A stretch of DNA of 64,000 bases from positions 12,856,567-12,920,566 of the forward strand of contig CM120644.1 of assembly GCA_051362555.1 (NCBI GenBank), in the 5' to 3' direction. The stretch comes from Lingula anatina (Eukaryota > Animalia > Brachiopoda). Shown piece after piece: positions 1,086 to 64,000 of this stretch (its first letter is position 1; each line of letters begins with the position of its first letter). Both the position numbers and the translations under genes were made by a program. The notes beneath the pieces are model-generated. The model was not told the DNA's origin and made no database searches. It saw only the letters and a list, made by a program, of their open reading frames with translations.

Positions 1086-2816
1086 ATGTTCTCTACTAAG
1101 TCGATAACTTTGCTGCTGCTGGTGACTATTGAAATTATTGAGTCTTCAGATGGGGTGAAGGTAGGTCCAGAAACAAATGTGTCGTTTTTTGTTTTATTTT
1201 ATTTATTAAATTTATTTAATTTTTTTTTTATAAAACCAACAACAGAAGTAAGGAACTTGGGTGTTATTTTTAATAACAAATGTGAAATGACATCACACAT
1301 CAACAAAGTATGTAAAACAGCATATTTTAGTCTCCAACAAATATCCAAGATCTGTCACCTTATTAACACCAAGCAAACTGAATTACTCATCCATGCATTT
1401 GTAACTTCTAGACTGGATTATTGCAATAGCCTATTGTTTGGAATACCTAACTATCAAATGGAAAAGTTACAATCAATTCAGAACTCTGCTGCTCGTCTCC
1501 TCTGTAAAGCTCAGAAGTCCGAACACATCACACCAATTCTGCGAAACCTCCACTGGCTACCCGTGTCTCAACGAATAGTTTTTAAAATATTACTTTTGAC
1601 TTTCAAGATTTTTAATGACGACTGTCCATTTTACTTAAACTCTACCATAGAACTTTTAACTCCTATCAGATCACTTCGATCTAGTGGACAACTTCAACTT
1701 ACGCGAAAAGACACCAAAAAGACTCTTAAAACATATGGACACAGAAGTTTCGAGATTTGTGCACCGATTTTATGGTCTAATTTTATCACAAGATCTAATG
1801 TGTCTCTGGATGACTCATATTACTGTTTTAAGAAGAATTTAAAAACTTTTTTATTTAAAGAATACTTTAATTTATAGCATCTTCTTAGTTTTTAAATTTT
1901 TTAAGTTTTCTGTTTTAGTTTATACTGGCTTTAATTTATCTGTGGAGTTTTAATTTTTTATGTAAACAGCGCTGAGACGCATGTGTAGCGCGGTTTTAAA
2001 GAAGTGTTTTATTATTATTATTATTATTATTAATTTGTTAAAACATTTGCTTGACTAGGATAAGGCTGTGAGAAATGTATAGCACATAATACCAAATGAA
2101 CACTAATAAGTAAATGGGTAAACATATGAGTTAAGGACAGGGGTGAGCTTTTACTTTTGCAGTAGAATCAATGTACATGTAAAACCAGAATAAATGTTTC
2201 AAGCGTAATTTTCAATAAGTAGGAAAATGTGCTGGCAAAAGGCATGAAAAGTCTTTTATTCATTTTTTAGGACCTCAACGGAATCTTTAGTTCGTATTTT
2301 ATTTTAAAGTTAAAAAAATTTTCCGATATTATCGACGTTGATGAAGATGGTACGGTAACTAAAGAATAATTAATTGATCTAACAGTGAACAGAGCTCAAC
2401 AAATCCTGCCACCTTGGAGAGTAATGGCAGTGTGTGGCATCTTGTCCAGCGGCTATAAAATCTGGTGGTCAAACAACTATAGCACCTATAAAACATCTAT
2501 TACCTTTGAAGAAATACTTCGTGCTGTGAAGAAGGAAATTCCTACAACAAAAAAGGCAGAAGTCAAAATTGCTTGTGAGTGGTTTCACACAATCGATCTT
2601 GACTGTGATGGCAAATTAACATTAGAAGAGTGTTCCAACTTTCTTGCAATCTTCCGTAATACAGCTGAGGTTCAAGATATATTAGATGCCATAAACCGCA
2701 AAAAAGATGGCATCATTGATCGATTTGATTTCGTATATGGATACACGCATTTTTGGTATGACCAACAACCCAGTCCTGCCGCATACATGATTGACGAATT
2801 AGATAAAACAAAATGA
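1086..2816 (+). pseudogene. Secreted EF-hand (SCP/photoprotein-fold) gene copy 1, divergent paralogue; exons 1086-1160 and 2271-2816; in-frame TAA at 2367-2369
   Basis: Exon MFSTKSITLLLLVTIEIIESSDGVK ends AAG|GTAGGT; acceptor TTTTTTAG at 2270. The phase-0 join reads DLNGIFSSYFILKLKKFSDIIDVDEDGTVTKE*, then continues in frame with ORF 2385-2816 (DLDCDGKLTLEE; ...YTHFWYDQ). The TAA replaces the Glu at EF1 loop position 12. Confidence 0.85.
1231..2030 (+). mobile_element. 5'-truncated L2/CR1-clade LINE (RT C-terminal region, 3' UTR, (TTA)n tail) in the intron of copy 1
   Basis: VRNLGVIF...LIHAFVTSRLDYCNSLL...LQSIQNSAARLL...HITPILRNLHWLPV is the typical L2/CR1 post-RT region; stop at 1877; 3' tail ...AGCGCTGAGAC...AGCGC... 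followed by TTA repeats. Confidence 0.85.
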
Positions 2817-2952
2817 TGTGATTCCACCGTTTCTATTTGGAATGCAATTACTTATGACAAAAAGTTGGAAGAAATTATACGACTTACCAATTAACTTTTT
2901 AATTGATACAAATAATAATTAAGCAAAATATTTTCCTCCCGGTTTAAAAGTT

Positions 2953-3169
2953 ACACTGCATTCCCATAGATTTAATATCGATCTATCCCCGTGGGGAGTC
3001 TCACTAGATTACTATCAATTTAGCCAGCTTAAATGTCTGTCCCGCCTACTTAAAGCTGTAAAGGGGTAATCAACTTCCGTGCGCGCTCGGCTGACAGCGA
3101 TTTAGCGTGAACCCCCAGGGAGTTAGACCGATCCAGATGGATCGATCTAAATCTGTAGGAATGCAGTCT
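2953..3169. mobile_element. MITE (PIF/Harbinger-like), copy A
   Basis: Terminal inverted repeats ACTGCATTCC..AGATTTA / TAAATCT..GGAATGCAGT; a related copy lies at 32242-32456. Confidence 0.7.
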
Positions 3170-3629
3170 CAATTACATGTACTTTCCGTTAATTAAATAA
3201 TAATCCGTCTTGGCGGATGTCTGCGTTCTCTTACTACTTTGAAAATATTTAAAGGCAGTGTAATCATTTGGGGGGGGGGGGATAAATGACGTGCCATTTA
3301 ATTAAAAAACCTTTAAATACTTGATCTGCAAAATAGAAGATATGGTTCCAGATCAAGAGACGCTGGAAAGAAAACAGGTAACCACTCCATGAGCAAAGCA
3401 GCAAATGGATATATAAACCTCTGTATTGTAAGAAAAATAAAGACCTCTGAATGGATGCTTGAAATTTCAACCCACCATTCTAATGGTATACACACGATGT
3501 AACATAATAGCGAAAACATTTGCATGACAGCATAATGACCCTTTTTCTTGGAAGCCCGTATGAATATGTAGTATGTTGCTTACATTTAGTTAAACAAAGC
3601 TAGGCTTTGAAAGCATCTGGCGTAATGGG

Positions 3630-3790
3630 ATTGATAATATGAGGAATAGGGGGCATGAGTACGTGACAAAGCAACTTTATCTGGAATACAATTCAATATT
3701 ATTGCAAATAAAACACTACGCTTCCTTAAAACTCCACGTGTCAGTCAAGGTACAGACATCTCACAGAATTGTACGACAGAAAGCTGGTAA
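3630..3790 (+). promoter_or_regulatory. Conserved promoter block and probable non-coding first exon (~3743-3786) of copy 2
   Basis: TGATAA...TACGTGAC (3660)...TTTATCT...A/T-rich TATA-like box...TCAGTC (3741)...CTG|GTAAGG (3787). The block recurs before copies 3-9, and a conserved acceptor (TTTTAG, 4116) lies ~30 nt upstream of the ATG. Confidence 0.6.
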
Positions 3791-4144
3791 GGCACATACT
3801 GTTTAATAACATTTGGGGGTGATATTATGTCAGATTCAGGACTGAACAGTTCCATAATACCCAGGCATAAATTTTTAATACGAGCTACCAATTCTCAGAG
3901 TTTAATTGTACAACTAATGTGCTATGAGTTATAATAAGTGTATTCTTTTCCATAACAGTATTATTATTACCTTTAAACGTGTTTAATAGATGTGGTAGAT
4001 ACATCTAGGTGTAAATTGTAAAAAGGAACCAGATCATTTCTTTTAAAGGGGGACTTAAATAAATCATATTTCATACTGGTTGATATATTTTAGTTATGTT
4101 GATTCCCTTGTTTTAGAAATCCTGGTAGTTTAGACTTTGAAATA

Positions 4145-5301
4145 ATGTCATCCATTAAGCTGATAAGTCTGCTCCTACTGGTTGCTGTTCAAACTGTCGA
4201 TTCTTCAAGTTCTGTGAAGGTAGGTCCAGAAAATCGTTTGTTTTTATTGTTCTTTTATTGAAACAAGCTTAGACAGTTGATAGAAAGGCAACACGGTTCT
4301 TAAATTGCAGGTAGTTGTGTTGGGATTTTCTGCTAGTCTGAAATCTTTTAGTGTGTTTATTGGATAAGAGAAAATATTTTTCTTGGATGGTGACTTAACG
4401 TGTGTGTAAAAAAAACAACAACAAAAAACAAAACAAAACAATTTTGATATTTTCATAAAACCAATATTTTTTCGGCAAAATCAATGACTTTTTTTTAGAA
4501 AAATACACCTGATCCAAACAATTACAGCATCTCATATGTTCGTTAATTAAGCCGAAACCAAATCATTTCCCAAATATTTAAACAGGATATATGCAAGAAA
4601 ATGTCATATTTAAATATATGATAAATAAAATATATCCAGGACTCATTTGAAAACCAATTTTTATATGTCCTTTTAAAAGAGTCTTTCAACTTTCAAAGAG
4701 ATAAGTTCCTAATTGGAAAGATGGACAAGGATGGGTCATTAAAGATAATTTCTTCATATTTCAGAACACCAAAGGAAAATTTAGTTCCTACTATATCACC
4801 AAGTTAAAAGAATTCTTTAATATCTTCGACGTTGATGAAGATGGTGTTGTTACTGAAGAGGAATATGTTGGTTTAACAACGGAACGAGCTCAAAAAGTTC
4901 TGCCGTCTTGGAGAGCTATGGCGGTGAATGGTATATTTTCCAATGCCTTTCGGGTCTGGTGGTCAAACAAATACTCCAACTATGAAACAGTCTTCACTTT
5001 GCAAGATATGATTCGTGTTCACGAGATAGACATGCCTATTGAGACGAAGGAGGCCGCCGAAATCTCATCTGATTTGTTTGGCACATTTGACATTGACTGT
5101 GATGGCAAGTTGACAGTAGATGAGTATTCCAAATTCCTTTTTGTTTATCGCAACGCGGCTGAGATTCAACCAATTTTTGATGCAATTGATCAGAACGCAA
5201 ATGGCGTCCTTGATGCAGATGAATTTAAAAGTGCACACGATCTCTCTTGGTATCGACAGGAGTTTAGCACCACTGATATAGTTTTCGGTAAGCGGTACTG
5301 A
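4145..5301 (+). CDS. Secreted EF-hand Ca2+-binding protein (SCP/photoprotein-fold), copy 2, intact, 203 aa; join 4145-4219,4765-5301
   Basis: Signal exon MSSIKLISLLLLVAVQTVDSSSSVK|GTAGGT; acceptor TTTCAG at 4764; open frame with EF loops DVDEDGVVTEEE, DIDCDGKLTVDE, DQNANGVLDADE; ends FGKRY*; AATAAA at ~5589. Confidence 0.92.
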
Positions 5302-8619: not shown

Positions 8620-8729
8620 TTAAGAAGGCATGCCTATTGACCCGTCACAGTAGGGAAGAAAGTATAAGTAAATAAACAAATATGTCATAAAAGCATGCCA
8701 ATCAACCCGACGTAGTGGGGAGGATAATA

Positions 8730-8780
<51 letters not shown>

Positions 8781-9430: not shown

Positions 9431-9489
9431 TAAATAAATAAATAAATGAAATGGAGAGGTCTGAAACTGTGCAGCATGCATGGTGTATA

Positions 9490-10880: not shown

Positions 10881-11027
10881 AGTGAAAGGGGGCGGGGTTT
10901 AGTTCAACTTACTGAGAGAAATTCTTTCTGATGGGTCCATGCTTATTAGGCTTAAGTTTGTATTGCCCCATGTCCGAAAGGTGTGCTCCAACCCGAGTGG
11001 CATTCAGCAAACAAAGTGAAAACTTAT

Positions 11028-22165: not shown

Positions 22166-24485
22166 TATAAAGAAAATAAATGAGTTCATTTATTAAGTAT
22201 AAAAAATCTTTGTCTTTCGTGCTACTTAAACAAAATATGAGCGTAAGCCTACTCGTACCTACAGTAGTCTACATGTACATAACATGTCAGATTTGACACA
22301 CACACCTCGACTAATTTTTCATTTCTTCAAGGAAAATAGTTAGCATTCGTGTTTTTCAAGCACTAAATGAAAAGAAAACACATACCTTTCAGTCAATTCA
22401 CATTTTCATCCAGATGTTATGGCACCACATTCAAGTAAATTGCGTTTGAGTTGGTTCACTGTCAGCGACGCGTGCACACGTTCCATGTTAAACTCTGGTG
22501 TAAAGCATTGAGCGAGATTGTGCGAGACTTTAGAAGGACTGCTTTCACCCCCACGCCATCTAGCGGCATACCCTTAAAGCGGGTATTCCCCATTGAGCAT
22601 GAGCAGAATGCACATGTGCTTAAATAAGCTCTCTGGAGATTGTTGTCGCCATAAAATGTCGTTTGACTACGCCAAACTTTCCTTTTTTTTGTGAAAATTT
22701 TTCACATATTTTTCAGCTTATATGCAACACTGATAACACAATATAAGAAAAATAGATAGGCCAATTGTCATTATACTCACAGGAGTGGTCAATCTTACTA
22801 AAACGCAGGTTGAGTTCGAAAATCAGCATAATCTAACCAGTGTACAAATAACAATAAAGAAACGTTAGTAATAATACAGTGTAGCTGCTAAAACTGCGGG
22901 TAAATATATCCGCAGCTACAAAGCTGAATGACTTCTCACTGAATGCAGCTCAATGGAATTAATCTCCAAAACATCTTTCATAGAATATACTTGTGAGTGC
23001 CTTGATACACAGCAGCTAAGACATTCCTTAACCCTGGACATCTGTTAACACCTTGTCTTGGTCAACTACTTAAGGTCAAAATGTGCAGACACAAGACCCA
23101 AACAAAACGTTGATGTATTACCAAAAAGTTAATAGCACCACTAAAACAAACCATTTGCTACATAAATACAATTAATTCTCTTAATTGTAGTTTTGTTTGA
23201 CATTTCCTGCATCTTTACAATATTGTAAGTTGATTATATAAAAATTATGGTAAACTTGTTATCGTGTTTTGTGTAATAAAGTGTCAAAAATGGAAATAAA
23301 CTCATATTATTGCAGTTTGTCAGATTCAATCATCCACTATGTTCAGAATCTCAGAATGGAGGAAATTGGACATTTAACACTGTTGTATTGATATTTTTCC
23401 CATCTCATCAATTTTCTTAGTTGATCATATAAAAATTGCAGTAAACTGTAAAAATAGAAGAAAACACAATTTTTGGTGCTGCTGCCATGATGACCATTAT
23501 GGGAAAACCATGTTACTTATGACTGTCAAACTTTCAAAAAAGAAACAGAGGACTAAAATGCAGCCTGAGCTGGAAAAGCAGTCTAATTGGCGTCTTTTTC
23601 TGGAAGTTATACATTTTAGTGAAATATTCATTATTATCGTTTTGGCATATTCATTGTGGGACTTAGAGCTCCCATGGACATGAAGCTGAATGGTAATCAA
23701 GTTTTCTACATTTCAATGCTATTTATAGTCAATTATCGAAAATTGGTGATAATTATTCTGTTATTTATTATGTAATGTTACATCAAAATTGACAAAAAAA
23801 TTTTTGCACTGCTACTAGAAACATTATGAAAGTTCAAATTGCAGTTCAAATTAGAAAGCCAGCTCAATTGGGTTATCATTTATTATTGAATTTATGCAGT
23901 TTTGTGTAAAATTTTCATTTTTCTCATTCTGGCATTTACAAAGTGTGAACTTTAACTCCCATCGGCCTTATGCTGAAGCCTTATGCTTGTTACACATTTT
24001 ACTTACATCAGTATTTCCTGCTGAGCATAATTAAAATTTGATGTTGAATTTGCAGTTAAGCATAATGTACTTTTGCATCAGAATTGACAGTAGCCTATTT
24101 TGTGCATTGTTATTTTCTGCTTTTTGTCTGTACATTTGACAGCTTTGCTGCCTTGTTATTTTCCCCACTGAGCTAAGAACAATTCAGGACTGAACAGAAT
24201 CATAAAGACCAGGCAAAGCGATTGTTAGCTTTTATTTGTACGACTCAAGTATTAAGAGTGACATACATTATAATACGTATATTCTTCTTCTATCACTATT
24301 ATAATTATTATTTATAAACGTGTTTAATAGATGTGGAAGATATATCTAGGTGTAAATTGTAAAAATGGAACCCTGATTATATATTTAAACAAGTGATTTA
24401 ATAAAATCATATTTCAGATCAGTTGTTTACTTTTTAGATCTGTTGACTCCCTTTTAGAAAACTTGGGAATTTAGAATTTAAGATA

Positions 24486-25635
24486 ATGTCATCCATTCAG
24501 CTGATAAGTCTGCTCCTACTGGTTGCTGTTCAAGCTGTCAATTCTTCAAGTATTGTGAAGGTAAGTCCTGAAAAGCGTTTGTTATTAGCGTCTGGCTATT
24601 GAAACAAGCTTATACACTGAAAGGCAACACAGTTCTTAAATTGCAGGGAGTTGTGTTGGGATTTTCTGCTAGTCTGCAAGCGTTAAGTGTGTTTTATTGA
24701 ATAACAGAAAGCATTTTTTCTTAAAGGTGACTTAACGTGTGTATTAACAAAATACAACATAAAAGAAGAAAACATTTTCATAAAACCAATACTTATTTGG
24801 CAAAATCAATGGCTTTTTAAGAAAAAATAATACACCTGATCAAAACAATTACAGCATCTCATGTCCGTTTTAAACCGAATCTAAATATTCCAAATGTGTA
24901 AACAGGATACTGCAAGAAAATATCATATCTAAAACAAATAATACACCCCAAATACATGCTATATAAATAATAGCCAGGGCCCATTTGGAAACCAATCTAC
25001 GTCCTGTTATAGGAACAATTCAGCGTTCAGAGAGATCGACTCCTAATGTGAAAGACGGATAATGCTGGGTAATAAAATATAATTCCTTCATATTTTAGAA
25101 TTACAAGGGAAAGTTTACTTCCTACCGGATAACCAAGTTCAAAGCATTCTTTGATATCATCGACGTCGATGAAGATGGCGTTGTAACTGAGAAGGAATTC
25201 GTTGATTTAACAACAAAACGAGCTCAAAACGTTCTGCCGTCCTGGAGAGCCATGGCTTGGAATGGTATGTTTTCCAACGCCTTTCGGGTCTGGTGGTCAA
25301 ACGAATACTCTAACAATAAAACAGCCTTCACTTTTGAAGATATGATTCGGGTTCACGAGATAGACATTCCTATTACAACGGAGGAGGTCTCCCAAATCTC
25401 ATGGAATATGTTTGGCACTTTTGATATTGACTGCGATGGCAAGTTAACGATAGATGAGTATTCCAAATTCCTGTTTGTTCACCGCAACACGGCTGAAATT
25501 CAACCAATTTTTGGTGCAATTGATCAGAACGCAAATGGCGTCCTTGATGCAGAAGAATTTGTAAGTGCATACGACCTCTATTGGTATCGACAAGAGTTCA
25601 GCACCACTGATGTAATTATAGGCAAGCGGTACTGA
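24486..25635 (+). CDS. Secreted EF-hand protein copy 3, intact, 203 aa; join 24486-24560,25099-25635
   Basis: MSSIQLISLLLLVAVQAVNSSSIVK|GTAAGT; acceptor TTTTAG at 25098; open frame with DVDEDGVVTEKE, DIDCDGKLTIDE, DQNANGVLDAEE; ends IGKRY*. Confidence 0.92.
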
Positions 25636-35200: not shown

Positions 35201-35281
35201 GATTCCGTTCACTGGACTAGCAACAATGGTGGCCTTTTTAGGCCTTAATAGGCCACCAAAACCAATCCTCAAAATATGCAG

Positions 35282-37634: not shown

Positions 37635-40178
37635 TGCAGAAGCCAACGACAAAGAGATAGTTGGACAATAGGGGAACCGGAGGAGACATGATTGTGCCAG
37701 TACTCAGTTGTAAATCGCTTCTAACAGTTAGATAAGATCCAACCTGGCCATTTTTTCAAAACTATTGATTGACGGACAGAGGGAATCTCCTTTGCTTGTG
37801 ATTTTAGCTCATGTAGGAGGATGTCAGAATGTCATCTTTGTTATGGCATTTGTTACTGATTAGTGCCTACCCCCTGTAGTACGTGTCTTGGTGTGACTAT
37901 ATATGTGTAGTGTACCCTCTAAAAACTCGTCACAATATTTTAAAAAAGATAAATCGATGCACAGCAATCGTGGTTCGATACGAATCCGTTGTTAGTTGCG
38001 AACTACTTCGTTTTCACAAGGTCCCCAAAGGACTCAAAAACATCGTTATAATTGCAGAACATTGTAAAAAAAAAACACACAAAATGAATTATACATGTAT
38101 ATGGGCATATCAGCTAACATACATGCAAACATTAATTAATTATCAATTTACGGTCGCGCGGGTGTGCGGAAGTGCGTCGCCCCCACCACAGGAGTAAAAG
38201 GCGTGGTCACGATGCACGCTCATGTCTCGACATATTAAGTTGCTTGTGCCTCGTGAACAACATTTAAAAAAGTTCGAAATTTGCTTAATTCAGTTTCTAA
38301 TATGCCTCCAAAAAGCAACGGACAGAAGCTAGGAGAACAGAAAAGAAGGAAGGAGGAAAAAGAAAAAAGGGGGAACAGGAGGCAAAAATGACGTACGCGG
38401 TCATTACGTCAAAACAGCGTGTGAGGCAAGTGTAAAGCAAAAGGAAATTCCTTTTGCCGTACGTAGCATTATCTTCATAAATAGTGAATGCGTGCCACGT
38501 ACACAGGTAGCGAGACAAACTCAAGACATAAGTACATCGCACCTTGCAATTAGCGTCCCTGCTTCTCACGTGAACCCTGCAACTCGCAAGGCAGACTTGC
38601 GCATTTCCATTGCAAACTTTACTCTACCTTTACGAACTCCACCGCCTCCTCTGCATGCAAGGGGCCGTGCGATCCTAAAATTCGTGCGTCCGGTTGTGAC
38701 AAAGGCTTTAATTACAGTGTACGAGAGCTTAACTAATTAAATCATGATATACAGGGATGTTTCCTTAGAAATGCGCATTTACGTTTTCACATAGATATCA
38801 CTGCATTTTTCTTCAATTTCCAATAAGACTCTGAACTGTGTTAGTTAAGTAAACATAAAAGTCTTTTTTTAAAGAAAATTGTCTTTTCAATTTGCTGGGT
38901 ATATAATATTTGACAAAAAAAAAAAAAAAAAAAAAAAATCAAAGCCTCTTTAATTCCTGTATCTTTCTACATTTTAACCAATTAGACGGATAATTTATGG
39001 ACATATCTAATAATATTTTCGATCTTATTGATCAGAACGAATATTATTACCATGATGCTAATGAATTTACACGTGCATGCGAGCAGTATTGGCATATACA
39101 ACAGTTCGGCAACTGATTTTATTTTAGATAACCTTAACTGATGAAGTTGGTAATAAAAAGGAGGTTATCCGTCCATTAAGTTTTAGCTTTAAAATTGCAA
39201 GTTACTAAGTGCCACTTTGCTGTTGTCTGTTTTTTTCAGCTTGGTGCACTTCCCCTAGTTACTCTGGATTACTAAGATGATTCATAGAAAGATAGATTTC
39301 ACATTATAATCACTCCGTGTTTTTTTCTATTTTTCAATTAACCTCGAAACAGTGCCTAAGTAAAGATATAGGGTTATTCACTACCACAAAGAAAGTAGAA
39401 GTCAAAATTGATTGCTTAGTTTCACAGTTTATCTTAAATGCGATGGAAAACTAACTCTGTATTGGTATGAAAAATAGATAAATGTATAGACTTCGGAAAT
39501 TCCATTTCTCAAGCAGTATAGGAACGGGGTAACATACTTCATGTAGCAAGGAAATATACCTGACAGCAGTATGACGATTTTTAGGTATCCCGTATGAACA
39601 TGTAGTTTGGCGCTTACATTTGATTACACAATGTTAAGCTTTGAAAGCTGCTGGCGAAATGGGATTGATAACATAAAGAATAGGGGACACGCGTACGTGA
39701 CAAAGCGACTTTATCTGGAATATATTTCAATTTAATTTTATTGAAATAAACCACCCTCCTTGAAACACCAGTCAATCCACAGACCTCCTATAGAAGTGTA
39801 GGCCAGAAAACTGGTAAGGCATATATTATTTGATAACATTTGGGGTCTGTTATTGTATCACATACTATTGTGAAAATGACAACTTTCTTCTCGCTTAGCA
39901 CTCAGCATGGAAATTGCAGCTAAATTTAAGGTTTGTCATGTAGTAGTGCTGGTTATTGTAAATAATAATTCCGTGCTCCGCATGTGCAGCATCTTAGTTT
40001 GCATTTTTTTCTACTGAGATAACAATGTTTCAGGAGCGAAACAGATCCATAAAGACCAGGTATAAATGTTTAATACAAGCTAGGCATTCTTGTCTTTTAT
40101 TTGTACTACTCAAGTATTATGAGTGACATATATTGATTCCCTTGTTTTAGAAATCTTGGCCATTTAAAGATTGAAATA

Positions 40179-41323
40179 ATGACATCCATTCAGCTGATAA
40201 GTCTGCTCCTACTGGTTGCTGTTCAAGCTGTCGATTCTTCAAGTATTGTGAAGGTAGGTCCAGAAAAGCGTTTATTATTGTTCGTTTATTAAAACAAGCG
40301 AGGACAGTATTAATAGAAACGCAGCGCGGTTCTTAAAGTGCAGGGAGTTGTTGTAGAATATTTTTGCTAATCTGTAACATTTTAGTGTGTCAGTTCACTG
40401 GAGAAGAGACCGTTTTTGGTTTTTCTTGGATGGTGACTTAACGTATACATATTTCAAACAAGAAACACATTTTTATAAAACCAATATTTACCGGCATAAT
40501 CACTTCTAATAAACATGGTATACCTGTTTAAAACAGCGTCAGCGTCTCATATGTTCATTTTAAACCCAATCCCAATTAAATCCAAATACAAAAATACACG
40601 CAAGAAATTGTCATATCTAAAACAAGTAATACCCCTGCAAAATATGATATTTAAATGATATATCGAAACCATTTGAAAATAAAATTTTCATTCTTTTAAA
40701 AGAGATTTTCGACGTTCAGAGCGATGGCTCTTAATGTGAAACACGACCAAGGCTGGGTCATAAAAAACAATTTCTTTATATTTTAGAATACCAACAGAAA
40801 GTTCAATTCCTACCAAATCAGCAAGTTCAAAGCATTCTTTGATATCTTCGACGTTGATGAAGATGGCGTTGTTACTGAAGAGGAATTCGTTGGTTTAACT
40901 ACAGGACGAGCTCAAAAAGTTCTGCCGTCTTGGAGAGCTTCGGCTGTGAATGGCATATATTCCGATGCCTTTCGGGTCTGGTGGTCAAACAAGTACTCCA
41001 ACTATAAAACAGCCTTCACTTTTAAAGATATGATTCGGTTTCACGAGATAGACATGCCTATTACAACGAAGGAGGTCGCCGAAGTCTCATCGGATTTGTT
41101 TGACACGTTTGACATTGACTGCAATGGCAAGTTGACAGTAGCTGAGTATTCCAAATTCCTTTATGTTTATCGCAACACAGCTGCAATTCAGCCAATTTTT
41201 GATGTTATTGATCAGAATGCAAATGGCGTCCTTGATGCAGATGAATTTGTAAGTGCACTCGACCTCTATTGGTATCGACAAGAGTTCAGCACCACTGATA
41301 TAATTTTTGGCAAGCGGTACTGA
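40179..41323 (+). CDS. Secreted EF-hand protein copy 6, intact, 203 aa; join 40179-40253,40787-41323
   Basis: MTSIQLISLLLLVAVQAVDSSSIVK|GTAGGT; acceptor TTTTAG at 40786; DVDEDGVVTEEE, DIDCNGKLTVAE, DQNANGVLDADE; ends FGKRY*. Promoter TACGTG at 39694. Confidence 0.92.
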
Positions 41324-51630: not shown

Positions 51631-52155
51631 CCACTCCGTGTTTGTTTTCTTTATTTTTCAATTTTACCCGAAACACTGCCATTGCAAGATACAGACGTAC
51701 TCACTGCCACATGAAAGCAAAAGTTAAAATTGCTTGCGATTGATATTCAAAGTTGGTCTAAGATGGGATGAAATATTAACATTGTATCTTTGCATTTGTA
51801 AGAAAAACAGATAAATGTATAGCTGCTTGAAATTCTGTTACTCAAATGGTATAAGAACGGTGTAACATACTTCATGTAGCAAGGAAATATGCATAACAGC
51901 AGAATAACACTCTTTTTAGGTAGCCCGTATGAACACGTAGTTTGGTGCTTACATTTCATTACACAATGCTAAGCTTTGAAAGCTACTGGCGAAATGGAAT
52001 TGATAACATTAGGAATAGGGGGCACGCGTACGTGACAAAGCAAGATTATCTGGAATACATTCTGTTATAACTGTATCACGCATCAGTCAGGGCACAAACA
52101 TCTCACAGAACTGAAGGACAGAAAACTGGTAAGGCACATACTGTTCCATTACATG

Positions 52156-52355: not shown

Positions 52356-52860
52356 AACATTTGGGGGTGATATCATATCCGATACTATCATGAAAATGAC
52401 ACCCTTTGTCTCCTATCTTAGCACTCAGCACATACAGGATGAAGCTGAAGTTAAGGTTTGTCATATTAGTGCATGTTATTGTAAATGATTTATACTCCGA
52501 GTTCCACATGTACAGTAGCTTAATTTTTATTTTCCCCAGTGAGATAAGAAGGATTCAGGACTGAAAAGATCCATAAAGACCAGACATTAATGTTAAATAC
52601 AAATTAGGACTTCTCTGGTTTTAATTATACAACTCCAGTAATATGAGTTTTAATACGTATATTCTTCTTCTCATCATTATTATTATTATCTATATGTTTA
52701 AAAATGTGGTAGAAATATCTAGGTGTAAATTGCATAAAGAAATCCTGAGTATTTATTTAAATTTAGGGAACGTAATCTGTTTATATTTTAGACTGGTTGT
52801 TTACTTTTCAACTCTGTTGATTCCCTCTTTTAGAAATCTTGCAATTTAGACTTTGAAATA

Positions 52861-54000
52861 ATGGCAACTATTTTGCTGATAAGTCTGCCCCTACTGGTTG
52901 CTGTTCAAGCTGTCGATTCTTCAAGTATTGTGAAGGTAGGTTCAGAAAATTGTTTGTTTTATCGTTCGTTTATTGAAACAAGTTAAGACAGTATTGATAG
53001 AGAAGCAGCATGGTTCTTAAAGTGTAGGGAGTTGTGGTGGGATTTTCTGCTTTTTTAAAATGTGCTTTACGTCTTGAATAAGAAAACTATTATTCTTGGA
53101 TGGTGACGTAATGTGTATTTAAACGAAACAAGAAAAATTTCTTAAACCAATGTTTATTCGGCAAAATGAATTACTTTTTCAGAAAAATAATACACCTGAT
53201 CCAAACAATTACAACATCTCACATGTTTATTTTTAACCGAATCCAAAGCATTTTTCAAATTTTTATTGATACATGTAAGGAAATGTCATATCTAAAACAA
53301 ATTATACACCTGCAAAGATATGATATATAAATAATAGCCAGAGGCCATTTGAAAACAAGTTTTTATCCTTTTAAAAGAGCGTTTTAACGTTCAGAGAGAT
53401 TACTTCCTAATGTGCAGGACGGAGAAGGCTGAGTCATTGAAAGATCGTTTCTTCATATTTTAGGACACCAAAGGAAAGTTTAATTCCTATCGTATCAACA
53501 AGTTATAAGATTTTTTTAATGTTTTCGACGTTGATGAAGATGGTGTTGTTACAGAACATGAATATGTGGGTTTAACAACAGAACGAGCGCAAAAAGTCCT
53601 GCTGTCTTGGAGAGCTATGGCGGTGAATGGTATATTTTCCAATGCCTTTCGGGTCTGGTGGTCAAACGAATACTCCAATTATAAAACAACCTTTACTTTT
53701 AAAGATATGATTCGGGTTCACGAGAAAGACATTCCTATTTTAACGGATGAAGCTGCCCAAATCTCGTGGGATTTGTTTGGCACGTTTGATATTGACTGCG
53801 ATGGCAAGTTGACGATAGATGAGTATTCCACATTCCTGTTTGTTCACCGCAACATTGCTGAGATTCAACCAATTTTTGATGCAATTGATCAGAACGCAAA
53901 TGGCGTACTTGGTGCAGAAGAATTTGTAAGTGCATACGACCTCCATTGGTATCGGCAAGAGTTCAGCACCACTGATGTTATTGTGGGCAAGCGGTACTGA
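52861..54000 (+). pseudogene. Secreted EF-hand gene copy 7 with premature stop; exons 52861-52935 and 53464-54000
   Basis: MATILLISLPLLVAVQAVDSSSIVK|GTAGGT; DTKGKFNSYRINKL* (AAA>TAA at 53506-53508); the remainder is open to VGKRY*. Confidence 0.87.
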
Positions 54001-55845
54001 TGCAGTTGGCAATGGCCAAGATATAGGTCTACCATTTCCTTTTAGATTCTAGCTTAAGTTTTCTAGACGTATACTGTCCCTTTGAAATGTTTAAGATGCG
54101 TATTGATTACAACAAGATTTACTTATGTTATACAAGAATGTTTCCTTAGATAGGCGAAATTGCCTGTTCACGTAGAAATCACGTTGTAGCTTGTCTATTT
54201 TCAATGTAAGTCTGAGCGTTGTGAATGAAGTAAATTCGAAAATGATTTTTCCATTCTCTTTGCTGGGCATATGGCATTTGGAATAAAACATCAAAGACTA
54301 CTCTTTGATTCTTGTATCTGTCTACATTTCAAACCATTTAGGTGGATATTTTGAGGAAATATTTAATAATAATTGTGATACTTTGAAAAGTCTCCTAGAG
54401 CATCCCAAAGACAGCGCACTCGCTTGCTTACGAAAGTCTCAAGAAAAAATGTGAGTACATTTTCCCGTTTTATCAGAGTGTCATCGTATATTAAATTAAA
54501 TATATTTCAAAAAACGTATGTTAAATGCTCATTGCTCGCTCACAAGAGCAATGGTTCCTATACTTAAGCCATGCGTCTCTGACATTTTTTTATTAATTTT
54601 AGCCTGGTAATAGCTGTAACTGTCATTTGTTTTGGGTAATAGGCCTGTCGCCATAAATTAATAATTTGATTTCCACTAAGTAAAAAAGAGTAAAGAAAAG
54701 TAAAAAAAAGAGTGCTGCTGCCATATTGACCATTTAAGGTAACCCATTGTACTGATGATTCTCAAACTCACTGAAAGATTCATAGGTCTGAAATATAGCC
54801 TGATTGGATTCAATTTCTGGCAGAAATACTGTTTTTGTGAAATGTTCATTTTTCACACGTTGGCATTTTCAGTGCGGGACTGTAGATGATTAAAATTTGG
54901 TGATGATTCTCAAGTTATGCACCACATGATATTGCATCAAGATTGACAAAGAACTATTTTGTACACTACCACCACGAATGCATGGAAAGGCAAACCTTTT
55001 TTTATTATTTTGTAATGTACCAGAATGATTATTAGAACTGACATTCATTTAGACAAATAAAACATTGAAAATGAATTGCTGTTTTTATCCTTTAAAAATT
55101 GCTTATTGTGTTAAAACAAGTTTTTACCATTATCTAAAGTAAGTTTGAAGATTAATGACCAAAAAGTCATTATTTTGACCCTCCGATCTCTGACAAAGAT
55201 AAAAATTGTTTGAGAAAGAAGCAATTAAAAAAACCTGTCTAGCTGCTTGAAATTCTATTACTCAGATGGTATAATGGTCATGTAGCAAGAATATATGCTT
55301 GACAGCAGTATGAAGCTCTTTTTAGGTAGCCCGTATTAACTTGTAGTTTGGCGCTAAAATTTGATTACACAATTTTAAGCTTTGAAATCCGCGGGCGAAA
55401 TGGGATTGATAACATGAGGAATAGGGGCACGAGTACGTGACAAAGCAACTTTATCTGGAATACATTTCAATATAATGGTATTTAAATAAACTGCCCTCCT
55501 TCAAACACCAACCATCAGTCAAGGTGCAGATCTCTTATGGAATTGTAGGACAGAAAACTAGTAAGATATGTATACAGTTCAATAATATTGTATATATAGA
55601 TTAGTCTTTTCGCTTAGCACTCACCACATAGAGGATGAAGCTGAAGTTAATTTGGTCATATGGCAGTGCTGGTTATTGTATATGATAAATCCAACCGCCG
55701 TATGTGCATCATCTTAGTTTTTATTTTCCCCACTGAGCTAAGAACAATTCAGAAATGAACTGATCCCTAAAGATCAGGCAAAGGAATTCTTAGCTTTTAT
55801 TTATACAACTCGAGTATTATGAGTGTCATGCATTATAATAAGCAT

Positions 55846-55904: not shown

Positions 55905-56066
55905 TATAAACGTGTTTAATAGACGTGGTAGATATGTAAATTGTATAAACGGAACTCTGATTATTTGTTTAAATAAGTGACTTAATTAATTCGTATTTCA
56001 GACTAGTTGTTTACCTTTTAGTTCTGTTGATTCCCTTTTAGAAACCTTGAAAATTTAGACTTTGAA

Positions 56067-57276
56067 ATGATGTCATCCATTATGCTGATAAGTCTGCTCC
56101 TACTGGTTGCTATTCAAGCTGTCGATTCTTCAAGTATTGTGAAGGTAGGTCCGGAAAAGCATTTGTCATTATCGTTCGTTTATTGACACAAGCTGATATA
56201 CTGTTGATAGAAAGGCAACACGGTTCTTAAAATGCAGGGAGTTGTGTTGGATTTTCTGCTAGTCTGTAATCTTTTTGTGTTTTATTGAACATAAGGCATT
56301 TTCTTGGATGGTGAATTAGCGTGTGTATAAACAAAATAAAACATATTTAAAAAAAAAAATTCTCAAAACCAATATTTATATATACACAAAGCACACAATT
56401 TTCACAAAACCAATATTTATATACCAATATTTATTCGACATAATCAATGGCTTTTTAAGAAAAAATGATATACCTGATCAAAACAATTACAGCATCTCAT
56501 GTCTGTTTGAAACCGAATCTAAATATTTTCCAAATATTTAAACAGGATACATGCAAGAAAATGTCATATCTAAAACAAATAATACATCCCAAAGATATGA
56601 TATATAAATAATAGCTAGGGCCCATTTGGAAACCAATTTATTTCCTTTTAAAAGAACGTTTCAGCTTTCAGAGAGATCGACTTCTAATGTGAAAGACGCG
56701 TAATGCTGGGTAATAAAATATCTTTTCTTCATATTTTAGAATAACAAGGAAAAGTTTTCTTCCTACCGGATTACCAAGTTCAAAGCATTATTTGATATCA
56801 TCGACGTTGATGAAGATGGCGTTGTTACTGAAAAGGAATTCGTTGGTTTAACAACAAAACGAGCTCAAAAAGTTCTGCCGTCTTGGAGAGCCATGGCTTG
56901 GAATGGTATGTTTTCCAACGCCTTTCGGGTCTGGTGGTCAAACAAATACTCTAACAATAAAAAATCATTCACTTTTAAAGAAATGATTCGGGTTCACGAG
57001 ATAGACATTCCTATTACAACGGAGGAGGTCGCCAAAATCTCATGGGATATATTTGGCACGTTTGACATTGACTGCGATGGCAAGTTGACAGTAGATGAGT
57101 ATTCCAAATTCCTGTTTGTTCACCGCAACACAGCTGAAATTCAACCAATTTTTGATGCAATTGATCAGAACGCAAATGGCGTCCTTGATGCAGAAGAATT
57201 TGTAAGTGCATTCGACCTCTATTGGTATCGACAAGAGTTCAGCACCACTGATGTTATTATGGGCAAGCGGTACTGA
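56067..57276 (+). CDS. Secreted EF-hand protein copy 8, intact, 203-204 aa; join 56067(or 56070)-56144,56740-57276
   Basis: (M)MSSIMLISLLLLVAIQAVDSSSIVK|GTAGGT; acceptor TTTTAG at 56739; DVDEDGVVTEKE, DIDCDGKLTVDE, DQNANGVLDAEE; ends MGKRY*. Promoter TACGTG at 55434. Confidence 0.92.
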
Positions 57277-58260
57277 TGTTGTCGGCAATGGCCAAGAAAT
57301 AGGTCGAACATTACCTTTAATCTTTTAGAATCTAGCTGAAGACTTATAGAAATATACTGTCCCTTTGAAATGTTTAAGATGCGTATTGATTACAACATAA
57401 TTTACTTATGTTATATAAGGATGTTTCCTTAAGAAGAACAATTTACGTTTTCGCGTAGAAATTACGTATTTATTTTGTCAATTTTCAATATATGTCTGAA
57501 CGGTATCCGTGAAGTAATCAAAAATGATTTTTCTTTGCTCTTTGGTGGGTATATGATATTTGGAATAAACCATGAAAGCCTCCTCTTTGATTCTTGTATT
57601 TTTCTACGTTTCTAATCATTTAGACTGAAATTCTGAGGACATATTTGATATTATTTTTGATGCTATCGATCAGAACGAATATGACTATCTTGATTCTAAC
57701 GAATTTACATTTGCATGCGAGCTGAATTGGTATCTACAGCAGCTTGGCATCTGATTTACTTTAGACAACGGTTACTGATGAAGTTGGTAATGACAAAAAA
57801 GTAATCTGTCTATTAAGTTTTAGCTTTAAGATTGCACCTTCTGATTGCTGCTTTGCTGTTGCTTCTTCACAGCTATAGGGTGCACCTGCCTCGTTTGGTG
57901 CTTGAGCATCACACTTGTAAGGACAACATTTTACACTGGCATACTAAGATGATTCGTTAAAGATAAACGGATTTTACATTTAAACCACGTACAGTCCGTG
58001 TTTATTTTCTTTATTTTTCAATTTTACTCAAAACACTGTTAAAATATAGATGTACTCACTACCACTTAGAAAGCAGAAGTTTACATTGCTTGTGCTTGGT
58101 TTCACACAGTTGATTTTAAATAAGATGAAATTTAACATTGTCACTCTGTAATTGTAAGAAAAATAGATAAATGAATGGGTGCTTGAAATTCCATTACTCA
58201 AACGGTATATTCACAGTGTAACGTGCTTCATGTAGCAAAGAAAGGTACCTGACAGCAGTG

Positions 58261-58616
58261 GCCTTCGGGTCTGGTGGTCAAACGAATACCCTAACTTTAA
58301 AACAGTCTTTACTTTTAAAAATATGATTCGGGTTCACAAGATAGACATACCTATTTTAACTGAGGAGGGAGCTGAATTCTCATCGGATATGTTTGGCACG
58401 TTTGATATTGACTGCGATGGCAAATTGACGAAACATGAGTATTCCAAATTTCTGTTTGTTTATCGCAACACAGATGAGATTCAACCAAATTTTGATGCAA
58501 TTCATCACAACGTGAATGGTGTCCTTGATTCCGAAGAATTTATACGTGCATACGACCTCTGTTGGAATCGGCAAGAGTTCAGCAACACTAACGTAATAAT
58601 CGGCAAATGTTACTAA
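58261..58616 (+). pseudogene. 5'-deleted EF-hand gene fragment
   Basis: Upstream-flank sequence joins directly to ...RVWWSNEYPNFKT...DIDCDGKLTKHE...IGKCY*. Confidence 0.87.
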
Positions 58617-61867: not shown

Positions 61868-63456
61868 CCGGACGCACCCATTTTAGGATTGTTCGTCCCC
61901 TGCGAATTTTGCGTGCAAGGTCCAAATGAGATGTCCTTTCAAGCAGGAAATTGTACTCATTTCTCGAGTTTGTCTTGCTAACTGCACATGTCCAACATCC
62001 TCCGTATGTGCATACGGACTGTCTTCGAGCCCTCTGTCTCTGTCTGAGCCCATGTGCACGCCTCTTCTCACGTTCACCTCCAGGTAAAAGTGACTACTCA
62101 TCTTCACGTCTTAGACCGCTATGCACAATCCTGTCTCCGCCGGTTCCCTTTTTTACATTTTTACTTTTAGATTTAACTTTAAGTCGTCCGAAAGTGTACT
62201 GTTCTTTGTAATGTTGAAATCGCGCATTAATTACAGTGTACGAGAGCTTAACCAATTAAATCATGTTATACAGAGATGTTTCCTTAGGAATGCGCATTTA
62301 CGTTTTCACATAGAAATCACTGTATTTTTCTTCAATATCCAATAAGACTCTGAACTGTGTCAGATAAGTAAATATAGAAGTCTTTTTTTTTGCAGCTTGA
62401 TGCACTTCCCCTAGTTACTCTGGCATACTAAGATCATTCCTTACAAAGACATATTTCACATTAAAATCACCCTGTGCTTTTTTTCTATTTTTTAATTTGC
62501 CTCAAACAGATAGCCTTAGTAAAGATAAAGAGGCATTCACTACCACAAAGAAAGCAGAAGTCAAATTGCATGATTGATTGATTTCACAGTTTATCTTAAA
62601 TGCAGTGGAAAACTAACATTGAAACTCTGTATTTATATAAAAAAAGATAAATGTATAGACTCTTGAAATTCCATTACTCAAACAGTATAGGAACGATGTA
62701 TCATACTTCATGTAGCAAGGAAATATACCTGACAGCAGTATGAGGCGTTTTAGGTAGCCCGTATTAACATGTAGTTTGGTGCTTACATCTGATTACACAA
62801 GTTAAGCTTTGGAAGCTGCTGGCGAAATGGAATTCATAACATAAAGAGTAGGGGCGAGCGTACGTGACAAAGCAACTTTACCTGGAATACATTTCATATT
62901 AATTGTATATAAATAAATAACCCTCCTTCAAACACCACGCATCAGTCAAGGCACAAACATCTCACAGAATTGTAGGACAGAAAACTGGTAAGACATATAC
63001 TGTTCAATAACATTACTTTTCTCTTCGCTTAGCACTCAGCATATAGAGCATAAAGCTCTGTCATATTAGTAGTCCTTGTAAATGAGAAGTCCGAATGCCA
63101 CATGTGGAGCAGCTTGGTTTGTGTTTTCCCCACTCAGGTAAGAACGATTCAGGACTATACAGATCAAAAAAGACCAGGCATAAATGTTTAATACAAGTTA
63201 GGATTTCTCCGCTTTAAATTTTACTACTCAAGTGATATGAGTTAAAACAAATGTATACTTGTCCTTAACATTATTATCATCATTACTTAATAGATATGGT
63301 AGATATAATATGTATTTAGTTTTAAATTGTAAAAAAGGAAACTTGCTTATATCTTTAAAAAGGACTTAATCAGTATATAATTTAGATTGGCTGTTAACTT
63401 GTTAGTTCTGTTGATTTCCTTGTTTTAGAAATCTTGGGAATTTAGACTTTAAAATA

Positions 63457-63531
63457 ATGTCATCCATTAAGCTGATAAGCCTGCTCCTACTGGTTGCTGT
63501 ACATGGTGTCGATTCTGCAAATATTGTGAAG
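63457..63531 (+). CDS. Signal-peptide exon of EF-hand gene copy 9 (main exon beyond the window end)
   Basis: MSSIKLISLLLLVAVHGVDSANIVK|GTAGGT; upstream promoter block (TACGTG 62861, TCAGT 62942) and a homologous intron running to 64000. Confidence 0.88.
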
Positions 63532-64000
63532 GTAGGTCCAGAAAATTGTTTGTTTTTATCGTTCGTTTATTGGAACAAGCTAAGACAGTATTAATACATG
63601 AGCAGTCTGGTTCTTAAAGTGCAGGTAGTTGTGATGAAATTTTCTGCTGGTCTGTAACCTTTCAGTGTGTTTCACTTCATTGAATAAGAGAACGTTTTCT
63701 TTCTTGGATGATGTCTTTTATGTTAAAACGTGTTTACAAACAAAATAAGAAACCAATTTTTCATAAAACCAATATTATTCGACATAATCAACGTCATTTC
63801 TTAGAAAAAAATATGCCTGTCCTAAGCAATAGCCCATATGTCCGTTTTAAACCCAATTTAAAATATTTTTCAAATATTTAAACAAACATAATACATGCAA
63901 GACGATGTCATATCTAAAAAATACACCTGCAAAAAATATTATATATAAATGATATATAGGGCCCACTTGAAAAGCAATTTTCATCTTTTCAAAGAATGTT

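What the first reader, a model, noticed from the sequence alone, without database searches (positions are those of the whole stretch)
1086..64000. Expanded tandem family of SECRETED proteins with the SCP / coelenterazine-binding / aequorin fold
Seen: at least nine head-to-tail units. Each splices (phase 0) a 25-aa hydrophobic leader exon onto a 178-aa exon with EF1, EF3 and EF4 loops, a non-binding EF2 region, and a C-terminal ...WY-x9-G tail. The ORF track misses this architecture. Established: this 3-of-4 EF-hand layout with spacing of this kind characterises annelid/mollusc sarcoplasmic Ca2+-binding proteins, Renilla coelenterazine-binding protein and hydrozoan photoproteins, which are compact intracellular proteins, the latter two with an internal ligand cavity. 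Inference: a lineage-specific recruitment of this fold to the secretory pathway, then amplification. Candidate roles are a Ca2+-triggered small-molecule (luciferin/pigment) carrier in mucus, a biomineral or adhesive matrix component, or a venom/immune effector. Function and host taxon cannot be read from the sequence.
Basis: partly seen in the sequence, partly recalled or inferred. Interest (0 to 1): 0.85.

Follow-up and report, generated by a model that had tools for sequence, protein, structure and literature searches.

The report
Secreted calcium-binding protein family in Lingula
The brachiopod Lingula carries a tandem array of genes for calcium-binding proteins of a normally intracellular type that have gained a predicted secretion signal; they are likely exported carriers of an unknown small molecule, and are unlikely to be light-producing or shell-matrix proteins.

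Summary
The array is real. The window holds nine head-to-tail gene units: four intact, four broken, one cut by the window end. The host is Lingula. Two spliced products are identical to RefSeq Lingula anatina proteins, and at least 24 family models exist, all named Lingula. RNA reads from close family members show the leader exon spliced to the EF-hand exon and reveal an unreported upstream non-coding exon. A confident model (pLDDT 92) has the SCP/coelenterazine-binding fold, tied between Nereis SCP, JH diol kinase and Renilla CBP. The leader fits signal-peptide rules by hand; SignalP was not available. The photoprotein catalytic His/Tyr residues are absent. The family is missing from two published shell proteomes. 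A family-specific cysteine in EF3 is invariant. Best reading: an exported, calcium-stabilised carrier of a small hydrophobic ligand (about 40%); a cavity or ligand is not shown.

The parts
1086..1160 (+). U1 leader exon, coding part (divergent copy)
   Evidence: GT donor at 1161
2271..2816 (+). U1 EF-hand exon, broken (in-frame stop at 2367-2369; EF4 loop degenerate)
3741..3786 (+). U2 non-coding exon 1 (Inr-like start, GT donor at 3787); start approximate
   Evidence: by likeness to the U4 exon seen in RNA
4117..4219 (+). U2 exon 2: 28-nt UTR plus 25-codon leader (ATG 4145)
4765..5301 (+). U2 EF-hand exon, intact; spliced product identical to XP_013398989
6822..6872 (+). Probable U3 non-coding exon 1, separated from its leader by 17.6 kb of repeats and a retroelement
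   Evidence: assignment to U3 inferred from order
24458..24560 (+). U3 exon 2 (ATG 24486)
25099..25635 (+). U3 EF-hand exon, intact; spliced product identical to XP_013409148
27033..27117 (+). U4 core promoter and non-coding exon 1: TATA-like box 27033, RNA starts pile up at 27062/27065, donor at 27118
27611..27712 (+). U4 exon 2 (ATG 27638)
28244..28766 (+). U4 EF-hand exon, broken (14-nt deletion near 28659, frameshift before EF4)
33060..33109 (+). U5 non-coding exon 1 remnant; no leader exon follows in the window
36326..36862 (+). U5 EF-hand exon, open frame but leaderless here; a 167/178 identical copy with a leader exists in RefSeq XP_013386927
37431..37634 (+). 3' fragment of an EF-hand exon
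39772..39813 (+). U6 non-coding exon 1; start approximate
40151..40253 (+). U6 exon 2 (ATG 40179); both of its ends are used as splice sites in RNA reads of family members
40787..41323 (+). U6 EF-hand exon, intact
52083..52128 (+). U7 non-coding exon 1
52834..52935 (+). U7 exon 2 (ATG 52861)
   Evidence: 2 reads join 52935 to the EF exon
53464..54000 (+). U7 EF-hand exon, broken (stop at codon 15, 53506-53508)
55515..55560 (+). U8 non-coding exon 1
56042..56144 (+). U8 exon 2 (ATG 56070)
56740..57276 (+). U8 EF-hand exon, intact; the copy that was folded
58254..58616 (+). 3' two-thirds fragment of an EF-hand exon, no acceptor
62942..62987 (+). U9 non-coding exon 1
63429..63531 (+). U9 exon 2 (ATG 63457); leader identical to one in RefSeq XP_013386927; EF exon expected just past the window end

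Best explanation
These are three-exon genes of a Lingula family whose spliced products, a predicted signal peptide on an SCP-type EF-hand domain, are likely exported and likely work as calcium-stabilised carriers or scavengers of a small hydrophobic molecule. Shown: gene structure, splicing and transcription of family members, three canonical EF loops under purifying selection, rapid gain and loss of copies. Predicted: the compact eight-helix fold and cleavage of the leader near residue 20. Inferred: in the secretory pathway and outside the cell the three loops would stay loaded with Ca2+, so calcium would hold the fold shut rather than trigger it; the space between the two lobes, floored by invariant aromatic residues (W66, F105, Y121, F124, F154) and lined by positions that vary between copies (14, 17, 21, 34, 97, 100, 104, 158, 174), would take a ligand, and copies would differ in what they bind; the single invariant cysteine in the EF3 loop would link chains by a disulphide. 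I put about 0.85 on export and about 0.4 on this mechanism.
For: Splicing: 12 and 28 reads join the leader end to an EF-exon start in X7 and X8, and 10, 27 and 1 reads join exon 1 to the leader exon at GT..AG in X7, X8, X9. Leader: charged or polar start, 10-11 hydrophobic residues, a (-3,-1) site after residue 20 in 7 of 7 units tested, too short for a membrane anchor; C-terminus has no ER-retention motif (rules recalled). 14 of 24 RefSeq family models start with such a leader, 2 more hold one internally; 10 of the 11 full-length leaderless-type Lingula SCP-like models score below 2.0 against 2.7-4.1 for leaders. [quoted passage not shown] The fold has been recruited repeatedly to bind small molecules (PMC5754374, passage). 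EF loops pN/pS 0.26 against 0.45 overall. Positions equivalent to the obelin cavity are more variable than other hydrophobic positions (entropy 0.86 vs 0.45, p 0.026 in 8 close rows; 1.55 vs 0.96, p 0.012 in 22 rows). Cys in EF3 loop invariant in 22 of 22 rows. Transcript level is modest, about 14-46 reads per million for the family in 3 runs (rough sum of depth bins), not what a bulk Ca2+ buffer suggests.
Against: The model fits ligand-free SCP as well as CBP (tied Z), and the only full-length sequence match in the PDB is Nereis SCP. The pocket-variability signal is weak: I saw the pattern before testing it, shifted controls reach 0.70 (close rows) and 1.51 (all rows) against 0.86 and 1.55, and a codon test on six window exons is not significant (pN/pS 0.63-0.69, permutation p 0.09-0.17). 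Lingula's leaderless SCP-like group has also expanded (at least 10 models), so expansion alone does not imply ligand diversity. No read is shown to come from a window copy itself (in the rows shown over the EF exons the cleanest reads carry 3 or more further differences). Tissue is unknown.
Confidence: 0.4

Rival explanations
1. Exported Ca2+ shuttle or sequestering protein with no organic ligand, acting in mucus, coelomic fluid or the shell-forming space, where phosphate or carbonate strips the calcium; copy number serves dosage.
For: Three intact loops under the strongest constraint; acidic, pI 4.4-5.2 for the five open exons; best sequence and tied best structure match is an SCP. Precedents: pearl-oyster Pf-SCP proposed to carry Ca2+ for shell formation, though located inside mantle cells (PMC12542302, introduction); Ca2+-binding proteins make about 10% of snail lubricating mucus (PMC10475054, passage); two SCP-like proteins, one of 201 aa, are listed in the Sternaspis shield proteome (PMC13425148 supplement).
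Against: Absent from both Lingula shell proteomes. Three ions per 21 kDa is little against millimolar Ca2+ (own reasoning). Copies differ by up to 60% and keep a surface motif and a cysteine that Ca2+ binding does not need.
Confidence: 0.25
2. Exported protein that binds another macromolecule or a cell surface (immune recognition, adhesion, gamete or larval signalling), using the conserved surface motif between helices B and C.
For: Birth-and-death pattern: 4 of 8 complete units broken, pairwise dN/dS 0.27-0.71. Residues 41-68 (R41, A42, L46, W49, R50, A53, G56, W66, N68) are invariant in 22 of 22 rows, and the motif occurs in only 3 of 148 other library hits, 2 of them Lingula family models. 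Expression differs between runs: 3 of 7 laid runs cover EF exons.
Against: No partner, induction data or tissue known. No sign of positive selection.
Confidence: 0.2
3. The proteins enter the secretory pathway but stay inside, as lumenal Ca2+ stores or packaging aids of secretory granules.
For: Secretion was not shown; an unpaired cysteine can hold proteins in the ER (own knowledge); EF-hand proteins of the secretory lumen exist (CREC family, recalled).
Against: No KDEL/HDEL-type tail; fast turnover of copies is unlike housekeeping lumenal proteins; no coverage in 4 of 7 runs.
Confidence: 0.1
4. Photoprotein or luciferin-binding protein of an unnoticed light system.
For: Fold shared with CBP and photoproteins (Z 17.9 and 13.6-16.4); automatic RefSeq names aequorin-2-like, obelin-like, luciferin-binding protein-like; tandem expansion of CBP genes goes with luminescence in octocorals (PMC13401004, passages).
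Against: At positions mapped to obelin: Tyr138 is Phe in 22 of 22, Tyr190 is Tyr in 0 of 22, His175 is His in 1 of 22, His22 is His in 2 of 22. Photoproteins rank below SCP, JHDK and calexcitin. The main text of a 2024 inventory of luminous marine animals never names brachiopods (PMC11051050, passages; its supplements were not read).
Confidence: 0.04

Closest known systems
Sarcoplasmic calcium-binding proteins (Nereis SCP, PDB 2scp/1q80; Pinctada Pf-SCP, 9l5m; amphioxus SCP, 2sas)
   Same: Length, EF1/EF3/EF4 pattern with a dead EF2, compact fold (Z 18.1, TM 0.75 to 2scp); only full-length PDB sequence match, E 1e-10 with the profile.
   Different: 23-24% identity; leader exon; invariant EF3-loop cysteine; family-specific motif at 41-68. 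SCPs are cytosolic (Pf-SCP lies inside mantle cells).
Renilla coelenterazine-binding protein (2hps, 2hq8) and octocoral LBP expansions
   Same: Fold (Z 17.9, rmsd 2.8, 171 aligned); tandem expansion (PMC13401004).
   Different: 18% identity; predicted export; host not known to be luminous; ligand binding untested.
Ca2+-regulated photoproteins (obelin, aequorin, clytin, berovin)
   Same: Fold (Z 13.6-16.4); Trp179-equivalent kept in 14 of 22 rows.
   Different: Catalytic His and Tyr residues absent; predicted export.
[quoted passage not shown]
   Same: Fold (Z 14.8, rmsd 3.0, 174 aligned); precedent for a non-luminous animal using this fold to hold a small molecule (PMC5754374).
   Different: 16% identity; its top rank with the poor first model vanished with the good model.
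Insect JH diol kinase / calexcitin group (7pjd, 2ccm)
   Same: Fold (Z 18.1 and 16.8).
   Different: 15-17% identity; intracellular (recalled); no test of catalytic or nucleotide-binding residues was made.
Secreted molluscan EF-hand shell proteins (abalone Hdh-SMP5)
   Same: Signal peptide plus three predicted EF hands, acidic (PMC10741955, passages).
   Different: 134 aa against 203; not among any sequence hits here; the Lingula family is not in shell proteomes.
Leaderless Lingula SCP-like group (e.g. XP_013421195) and two further leader-bearing Lingula types (XP_013393886, XP_013393980)
   Same: Nearest single-domain relatives found, 21-29% identity.
   Different: The leaderless group is a separate clade (100/99) without the EF3 cysteine; whether it is the sister of the secreted clade is unresolved.

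Membership tests
SCP (sarcoplasmic calcium-binding proteins) | Four EF motifs with canonical loops at EF1, EF3, EF4 and a non-binding EF2 | tested here: met
   Pattern met in 22, 21, 21 of 22 rows; no canonical loop at EF2
SCP (sarcoplasmic calcium-binding proteins) | Compact eight-helix globule of about 175-190 aa with a C-terminal tail | tested here: met
   Model pLDDT 92 with eight helices; Z 18.1, rmsd 2.8, 167 aligned to 2scp
SCP (sarcoplasmic calcium-binding proteins) | Cytosolic protein without a signal peptide (recalled; Pf-SCP location) | tested here: not met
   Hydrophobic leader exon is spliced on in RNA and fits cleavage rules by hand; SignalP not run
SCP (sarcoplasmic calcium-binding proteins) | High-affinity Ca2+/Mg2+ buffering | not testable with these tools
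   Needs titration of recombinant protein
SCP (sarcoplasmic calcium-binding proteins) | Phylogenetic placement among named annelid/mollusc SCPs | tested here: inconclusive
   Tree of 42 rows held no characterised SCP; deep branches open, midpoint root
Ca2+-regulated photoproteins | His175-Trp179-Tyr190 triad and Tyr138, His22 in the cavity (residue list from PMC10095345) | tested here: not met
   Mapped by EF-loop offsets (EF4 loop position recalled; Tyr190 mapping loose): Tyr138 Phe in 22 of 22, Tyr190 Tyr in 0 of 22, His175 His in 1 of 22, His22 His in 2 of 22, Trp179 Trp in 14 of 22
Ca2+-regulated photoproteins | Light on Ca2+ addition after charging with coelenterazine | not testable with these tools
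   Bench assay
Renilla-type coelenterazine-binding proteins | Shared fold | tested here: met
   Z 17.9, rmsd 2.8, 171 aligned to 2hps
Renilla-type coelenterazine-binding proteins | Closed cavity holding coelenterazine, released to a luciferase by Ca2+ | not testable with these tools
   Model coordinates not available; no luciferase search possible without the genome
OABP2 (okadaic acid binding protein) | Nanomolar binding of okadaic acid inside the fold | not testable with these tools
   Only fold likeness, Z 14.8, below SCP, JHDK, CBP and calexcitin
Lingula shell matrix proteins | Peptides found in shell extracts | tested here: not met
   0 hits for 21 of 24 family accessions searched in the 2026 supplement, positive control 13 hits; none of the 54 listed proteins is a family accession known to me; the only Lingula PF13499 entries are CHP1 and dystonin. 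In the 2015 supplement 'EF-hand' occurs 5 times, all in the genome-wide domain table. Most 2026 identifications rest on one peptide, so depth is low
Secreted molluscan SMP5-type EF-hand proteins | About 134-aa precursor | tested here: not met
   203-aa precursor here against 134; no direct sequence comparison was made
CREC lumenal EF-hand proteins (features recalled) | Six or seven EF hands and an HDEL/HDEF-type tail | tested here: not met
   Four motifs; C-termini listed carry no such tail

The most novel reading that the evidence does not exclude
Lingulid brachiopods built their own family of extracellular small-molecule binding proteins, the functional counterpart of lipocalins or insect odorant-binding proteins, out of the aequorin/SCP fold: one leader exon moved a cytosolic calcium buffer into the secretory pathway, calcium became a structural clamp, an EF-loop cysteine links the chains, and two dozen copies with differently lined pockets now capture dietary algal metabolites, pheromones or pigments.
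Probability: 0.3. Interest if true: 0.72.

Novelty: new variant of a known kind. Interest (0 to 1): 0.47.

Why it matters
Characterised members of this fold (SCPs, calexcitin, photoproteins, CBP, OABP2) are known as intracellular proteins (recalled, and Pf-SCP). A family of two dozen copies with a signal-type leader shows the fold being moved outside the cell by one small exon, where the usual buffer or trigger role for calcium makes little sense. That makes the family a direct test of how often this fold turns from calcium buffer to ligand carrier, the step thought to lie behind photoproteins. If pockets differ between copies, they are also natural, secretable, stable scaffolds for ligand sensors. 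The limits: RefSeq already models the genes, leader gain and tandem expansion are common in invertebrate genomes, and no function is shown.

Tried and rejected
No whole genome is held for this window, so family size comes from RefSeq models, which may include alleles on separate scaffolds and fused or truncated predictions. First fold with 11 rows was poor (pLDDT 63) and ranked okadaic acid binding protein first (Z 11.3); with the 47-row model it fell to sixth, so a special link to that protein was dropped. Positive selection on pocket positions: not found. Joints that link exons of different copies (27117 to 40151; 40253 back to 28244) were read as transcripts of a related copy or allele, not as splicing between units, because one of them runs backwards; 82 further joints were not shown. 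The P3 libraries read both strands equally, so strand was not shown. ESM Atlas gave only generic EF-hand/SCP clusters (0.95 for the mature exon; 0.87 with the leader); small clusters are not searched there. The 1.84-billion-protein search lists only 150 of 3531 hits, mostly multi-EF repeats, so distant secreted SCP-type proteins in other animals are not excluded; other brachiopods and phoronids may simply be missing from the collection. In the tree P0185 was cut to 93 aa by my trimming, P0141 was grouped with Lingula without a source name, identical or fused models were left out, and P0078/P0113 are long branches. ES20, an earthworm secretion recalled as SCP-like, is called calcium-dependent in PMC3384659 (passages) but its family was not confirmed there. 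A SidC_N Pfam hit on the ORF at 984-1877 is below cut-off and was ignored. Literature searches found no description of the family; the library lacks most subscription papers (for example the Lingula immune-system paper of 2018 was seen only as a reference). Earlier scan notes held nothing relevant.


Full report
1. What is in the window. The window is AT-rich animal DNA (GC 0.30-0.45). Searches with the second unit found 8 leader exons, 8 full-length EF-hand exons and two 3' fragments, all on the + strand. They form nine units. U2, U3, U6 and U8 are intact and give 203-aa products. U1 and U7 have in-frame stops at codons 33 and 15 of the EF exon, U4 has a 14-nt deletion before EF4, U5 has an open EF exon but no leader exon in the window, and U9 is cut by the window end. 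Donors are GT and acceptors AG, in phase 0, with second introns of 528-595 nt (1110 in U1). The tail is WY-x11-G in 5 of 5 open exons. A conserved acceptor lies 19-28 nt before each ATG, and a conserved upstream block with a TATA-like box, an initiator-like site and a donor is present in 8 of 9 units. The genes therefore have three exons. Retroelements and other repeats separate the units.

2. Host and family. All 8 hits of a single-sequence search are Lingula anatina RefSeq models. Spliced U2 and U3 are identical to XP_013398989 and XP_013409148, and the U9 leader is found letter for letter in XP_013386927. With a profile, 19 of 22 hits are Lingula at E 6e-62 or better; the other 3 are unrelated-looking at E 9e-5 or worse. 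A search without word index over 1.84 billion representatives added two more Lingula members and, as next single-domain relatives, other Lingula SCP-like proteins, an Owenia protein and unnamed proteins. A third search found a further Lingula group of at least 10 leaderless SCP-like models. I count 24 RefSeq models in the family; 14 begin with a hydrophobic leader, 2 fused models hold one inside, 8 lack one. In a 42-row tree the window copies and the other models with the EF3 cysteine form one clade of 21 rows (98/97); the leaderless group is another (100/99); two more leader-bearing Lingula types join the first clade weakly (88/80, long branches). The leaderless family models nest inside the leader-bearing clade, so they are losses or incomplete models. 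The root is not known. The family is Lingula-only in what was searched; related phyla may be poorly covered.

3. Transcription and splicing. Nine RNA runs with the same species label were offered; seven were laid. X7, X8 and X9 (one study) cover the EF exons; X1, X3, X4 (93% likeness, U7-U9) and X2 (85%, U3-U6) do not. A rough sum gives 46, 45, 14 and 0 reads per million for X7, X8, X9, X2. Reads join the last base of a leader exon to the start of an EF exon (12 in X7, 28 in X8; 2 more) and exon 1 to the leader exon at GT..AG (10, 27, 1). Read starts pile up at 27062 and 27065, about 30 nt after the TATA-like box. The reads differ from every window copy and their exons fit different copies best, so they come from close paralogues or alleles. 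They show the architecture for the family, not the activity of a given window copy. Tissues are not known.

4. The leader. It has a short polar or basic start, 10-11 hydrophobic residues (best 8-residue hydropathy 2.7-3.7) and a small-residue pattern at -3/-1 after residue 20 in 7 of 7 units tested. The hydrophobic run is too short for a membrane anchor, and the C-terminus has no ER-retention motif (rules recalled). The leaderless Lingula SCP-like proteins score under 2.0 in 10 of 11 full-length models. SignalP could not be run; export is a prediction.

5. The domain. Pfam sees only EF hands. EF1, EF3 and EF4 fit the canonical pattern in 22, 21 and 21 of 22 rows; EF2 does not. The only full-length PDB sequence match is Nereis SCP. 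With 47 aligned rows AlphaFold2 gave pLDDT 92 and pTM 0.87. Structure matches: Nereis SCP Z 18.1 (rmsd 2.8, 167 aligned), JH diol kinase 18.1 (2.6, 169), Renilla CBP 17.9 (2.8, 171), calexcitin 16.8, Pinctada SCP 16.0, OABP2.1 14.8, photoproteins 13.6-16.4, calmodulins 13 or less. The first three are tied, so the fold is settled and says nothing on function. Family marks: a cysteine at position 4 of the EF3 loop and a motif over residues 41-68, both invariant in 22 of 22 rows; it is the only cysteine in the mature intact copies.

6. Selection. Pairwise dN/dS among seven EF exons is 0.27-0.71. By class, pN/pS is 0.26 for EF loops, 0.31 for residues 41-68, 0.45 overall and 0.63-0.69 for positions equivalent to the obelin cavity. 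Cavity positions were taken from PMC10095345 (passages) and mapped by EF-loop offsets. They split into invariant aromatics and positions that vary between copies. Amino-acid entropy there is higher than at other hydrophobic positions (p 0.026 and 0.012), but I saw the pattern before testing, shifted controls come close, and the codon-level permutation test is not significant (p 0.09-0.17). This is a hint only.

7. What it is not. The photoprotein catalytic residues are missing, and an inventory of luminous marine animals does not name brachiopods in its main text (PMC11051050, passages). The family is not among the shell proteins of the 2026 study (PMC13425148: passages, section 8, supplement part 1 and searches; 21 of 24 accessions searched, control found) or of the 2015 genome paper (PMC4595640: passages, supplement part 6 and searches), and it is not in that paper's list of the 20 most expanded families. 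Shell proteomes are shallow, so a soluble role near the shell is not excluded.

8. How it most likely works. Shown: structure, splicing, intact loops, turnover of copies. Predicted: fold, signal cleavage. Inferred: after export the loops would be filled with Ca2+ all the time, since sea water and body fluids hold millimolar Ca2+ (own knowledge), so neither a trigger nor a bulk buffer fits well. The fold has been used repeatedly to enclose a small molecule: coelenterazine in CBP and photoproteins, okadaic acid in a sponge protein (PMC5754374, passage). An exported, calcium-clamped carrier or scavenger whose copies differ in pocket lining is the reading I favour (0.4). Rivals: Ca2+ shuttle in mucus or the shell-forming space (0.25; Pf-SCP, PMC12542302 introduction and passages; snail mucus, PMC10475054 passages), binder of a protein or cell surface (0.2), lumenal resident (0.1), light system (0.04).

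9. Novelty. RefSeq holds the models, leader included, under automatic names. Ten searches found no paper on the family or on signal-peptide-bearing SCP-type proteins; secreted EF-hand proteins of other build are known in molluscs (PMC10741955, passages). Other papers seen as passages only: PMC3570280, PMC13190495, PMC8933548, PMC3384659, PMC13401004. It works like the SCP/CBP group, fails the cytosolic criterion of SCPs and the catalytic criterion of photoproteins, and is best filed as a new variant of a known kind. Interest 0.47: solid and undescribed, but without a shown function; 0.72 if the carrier reading holds.

Noticed in passing
window 4145-4219, 24486-24560, 40179-40253, 56070-56144: The leader exons of the four intact copies differ by 8 amino-acid-changing but 0 silent changes, where about 7 silent ones are expected from their EF exons (naive P 0.0007, picked after the fact), while flanking introns of the copies aligned are only 76-82% alike to U2. 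Possible RNA-level constraint or short gene conversion.
   Followed up: partly
window 13484-20380 (- strand): BEL/Pao-type LTR retroelement with 496-bp LTRs that are 100% identical, so a recent insertion; long ORFs with Pfam DUF1759, RVT_1, Peptidase_A17, integrase zinc finger, DUF5641. It lies between the probable exon 1 and the leader of U3.
   Followed up: partly
window 42251-47349 (- strand): Second Pao-type element, 319-bp LTRs 98% alike, frames broken.
   Followed up: partly
window 33355-35975: Element with 159-bp inverted ends (89% alike) where the U5 leader exon would be; no Pfam hit for its ORF.
   Followed up: partly
window 1264-1877: Open frame inside the U1 intron that looks like the 3' end of a LINE (recalled; no valid Pfam hit); its 3' flank recurs inverted at 35282-35442.
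   Followed up: no
window 25934-26090, 37212-37345, 39015-39154, 48284-48362, 57653-57792: Downstream of several units lies a decayed extra copy of the EF4 and tail region, so the duplicated unit itself carries an old internal duplication.
   Followed up: no
window 8600-10900: Two satellite-like arrays with nested periods (53-199 and 38-373 bases).
   Followed up: no
window 29160-31861 and 41346-41662: Large inverted-repeat elements (73% and 80% alike arms), covered by RNA reads on both strands; probably non-autonomous transposons.
   Followed up: no
P0015, P0017, P0019 (RefSeq Lingula models): A sub-clade of the family starts with only three residues before the EF exon: a return to the cytosol or truncated models.
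   Followed up: no
P0078, P0113, P0175 (RefSeq Lingula models): Two further, distant types of leader-bearing SCP-like proteins in Lingula without the EF3 cysteine; the leader may have been gained more than once.
   Followed up: partly
PMC13425148 supplement, Data S3: A 201-aa SCP-like protein (21% to amphioxus SCP) is listed in the shield proteome of the annelid Sternaspis chinensis; its length would fit a signal peptide; sequence not seen.
   Followed up: no
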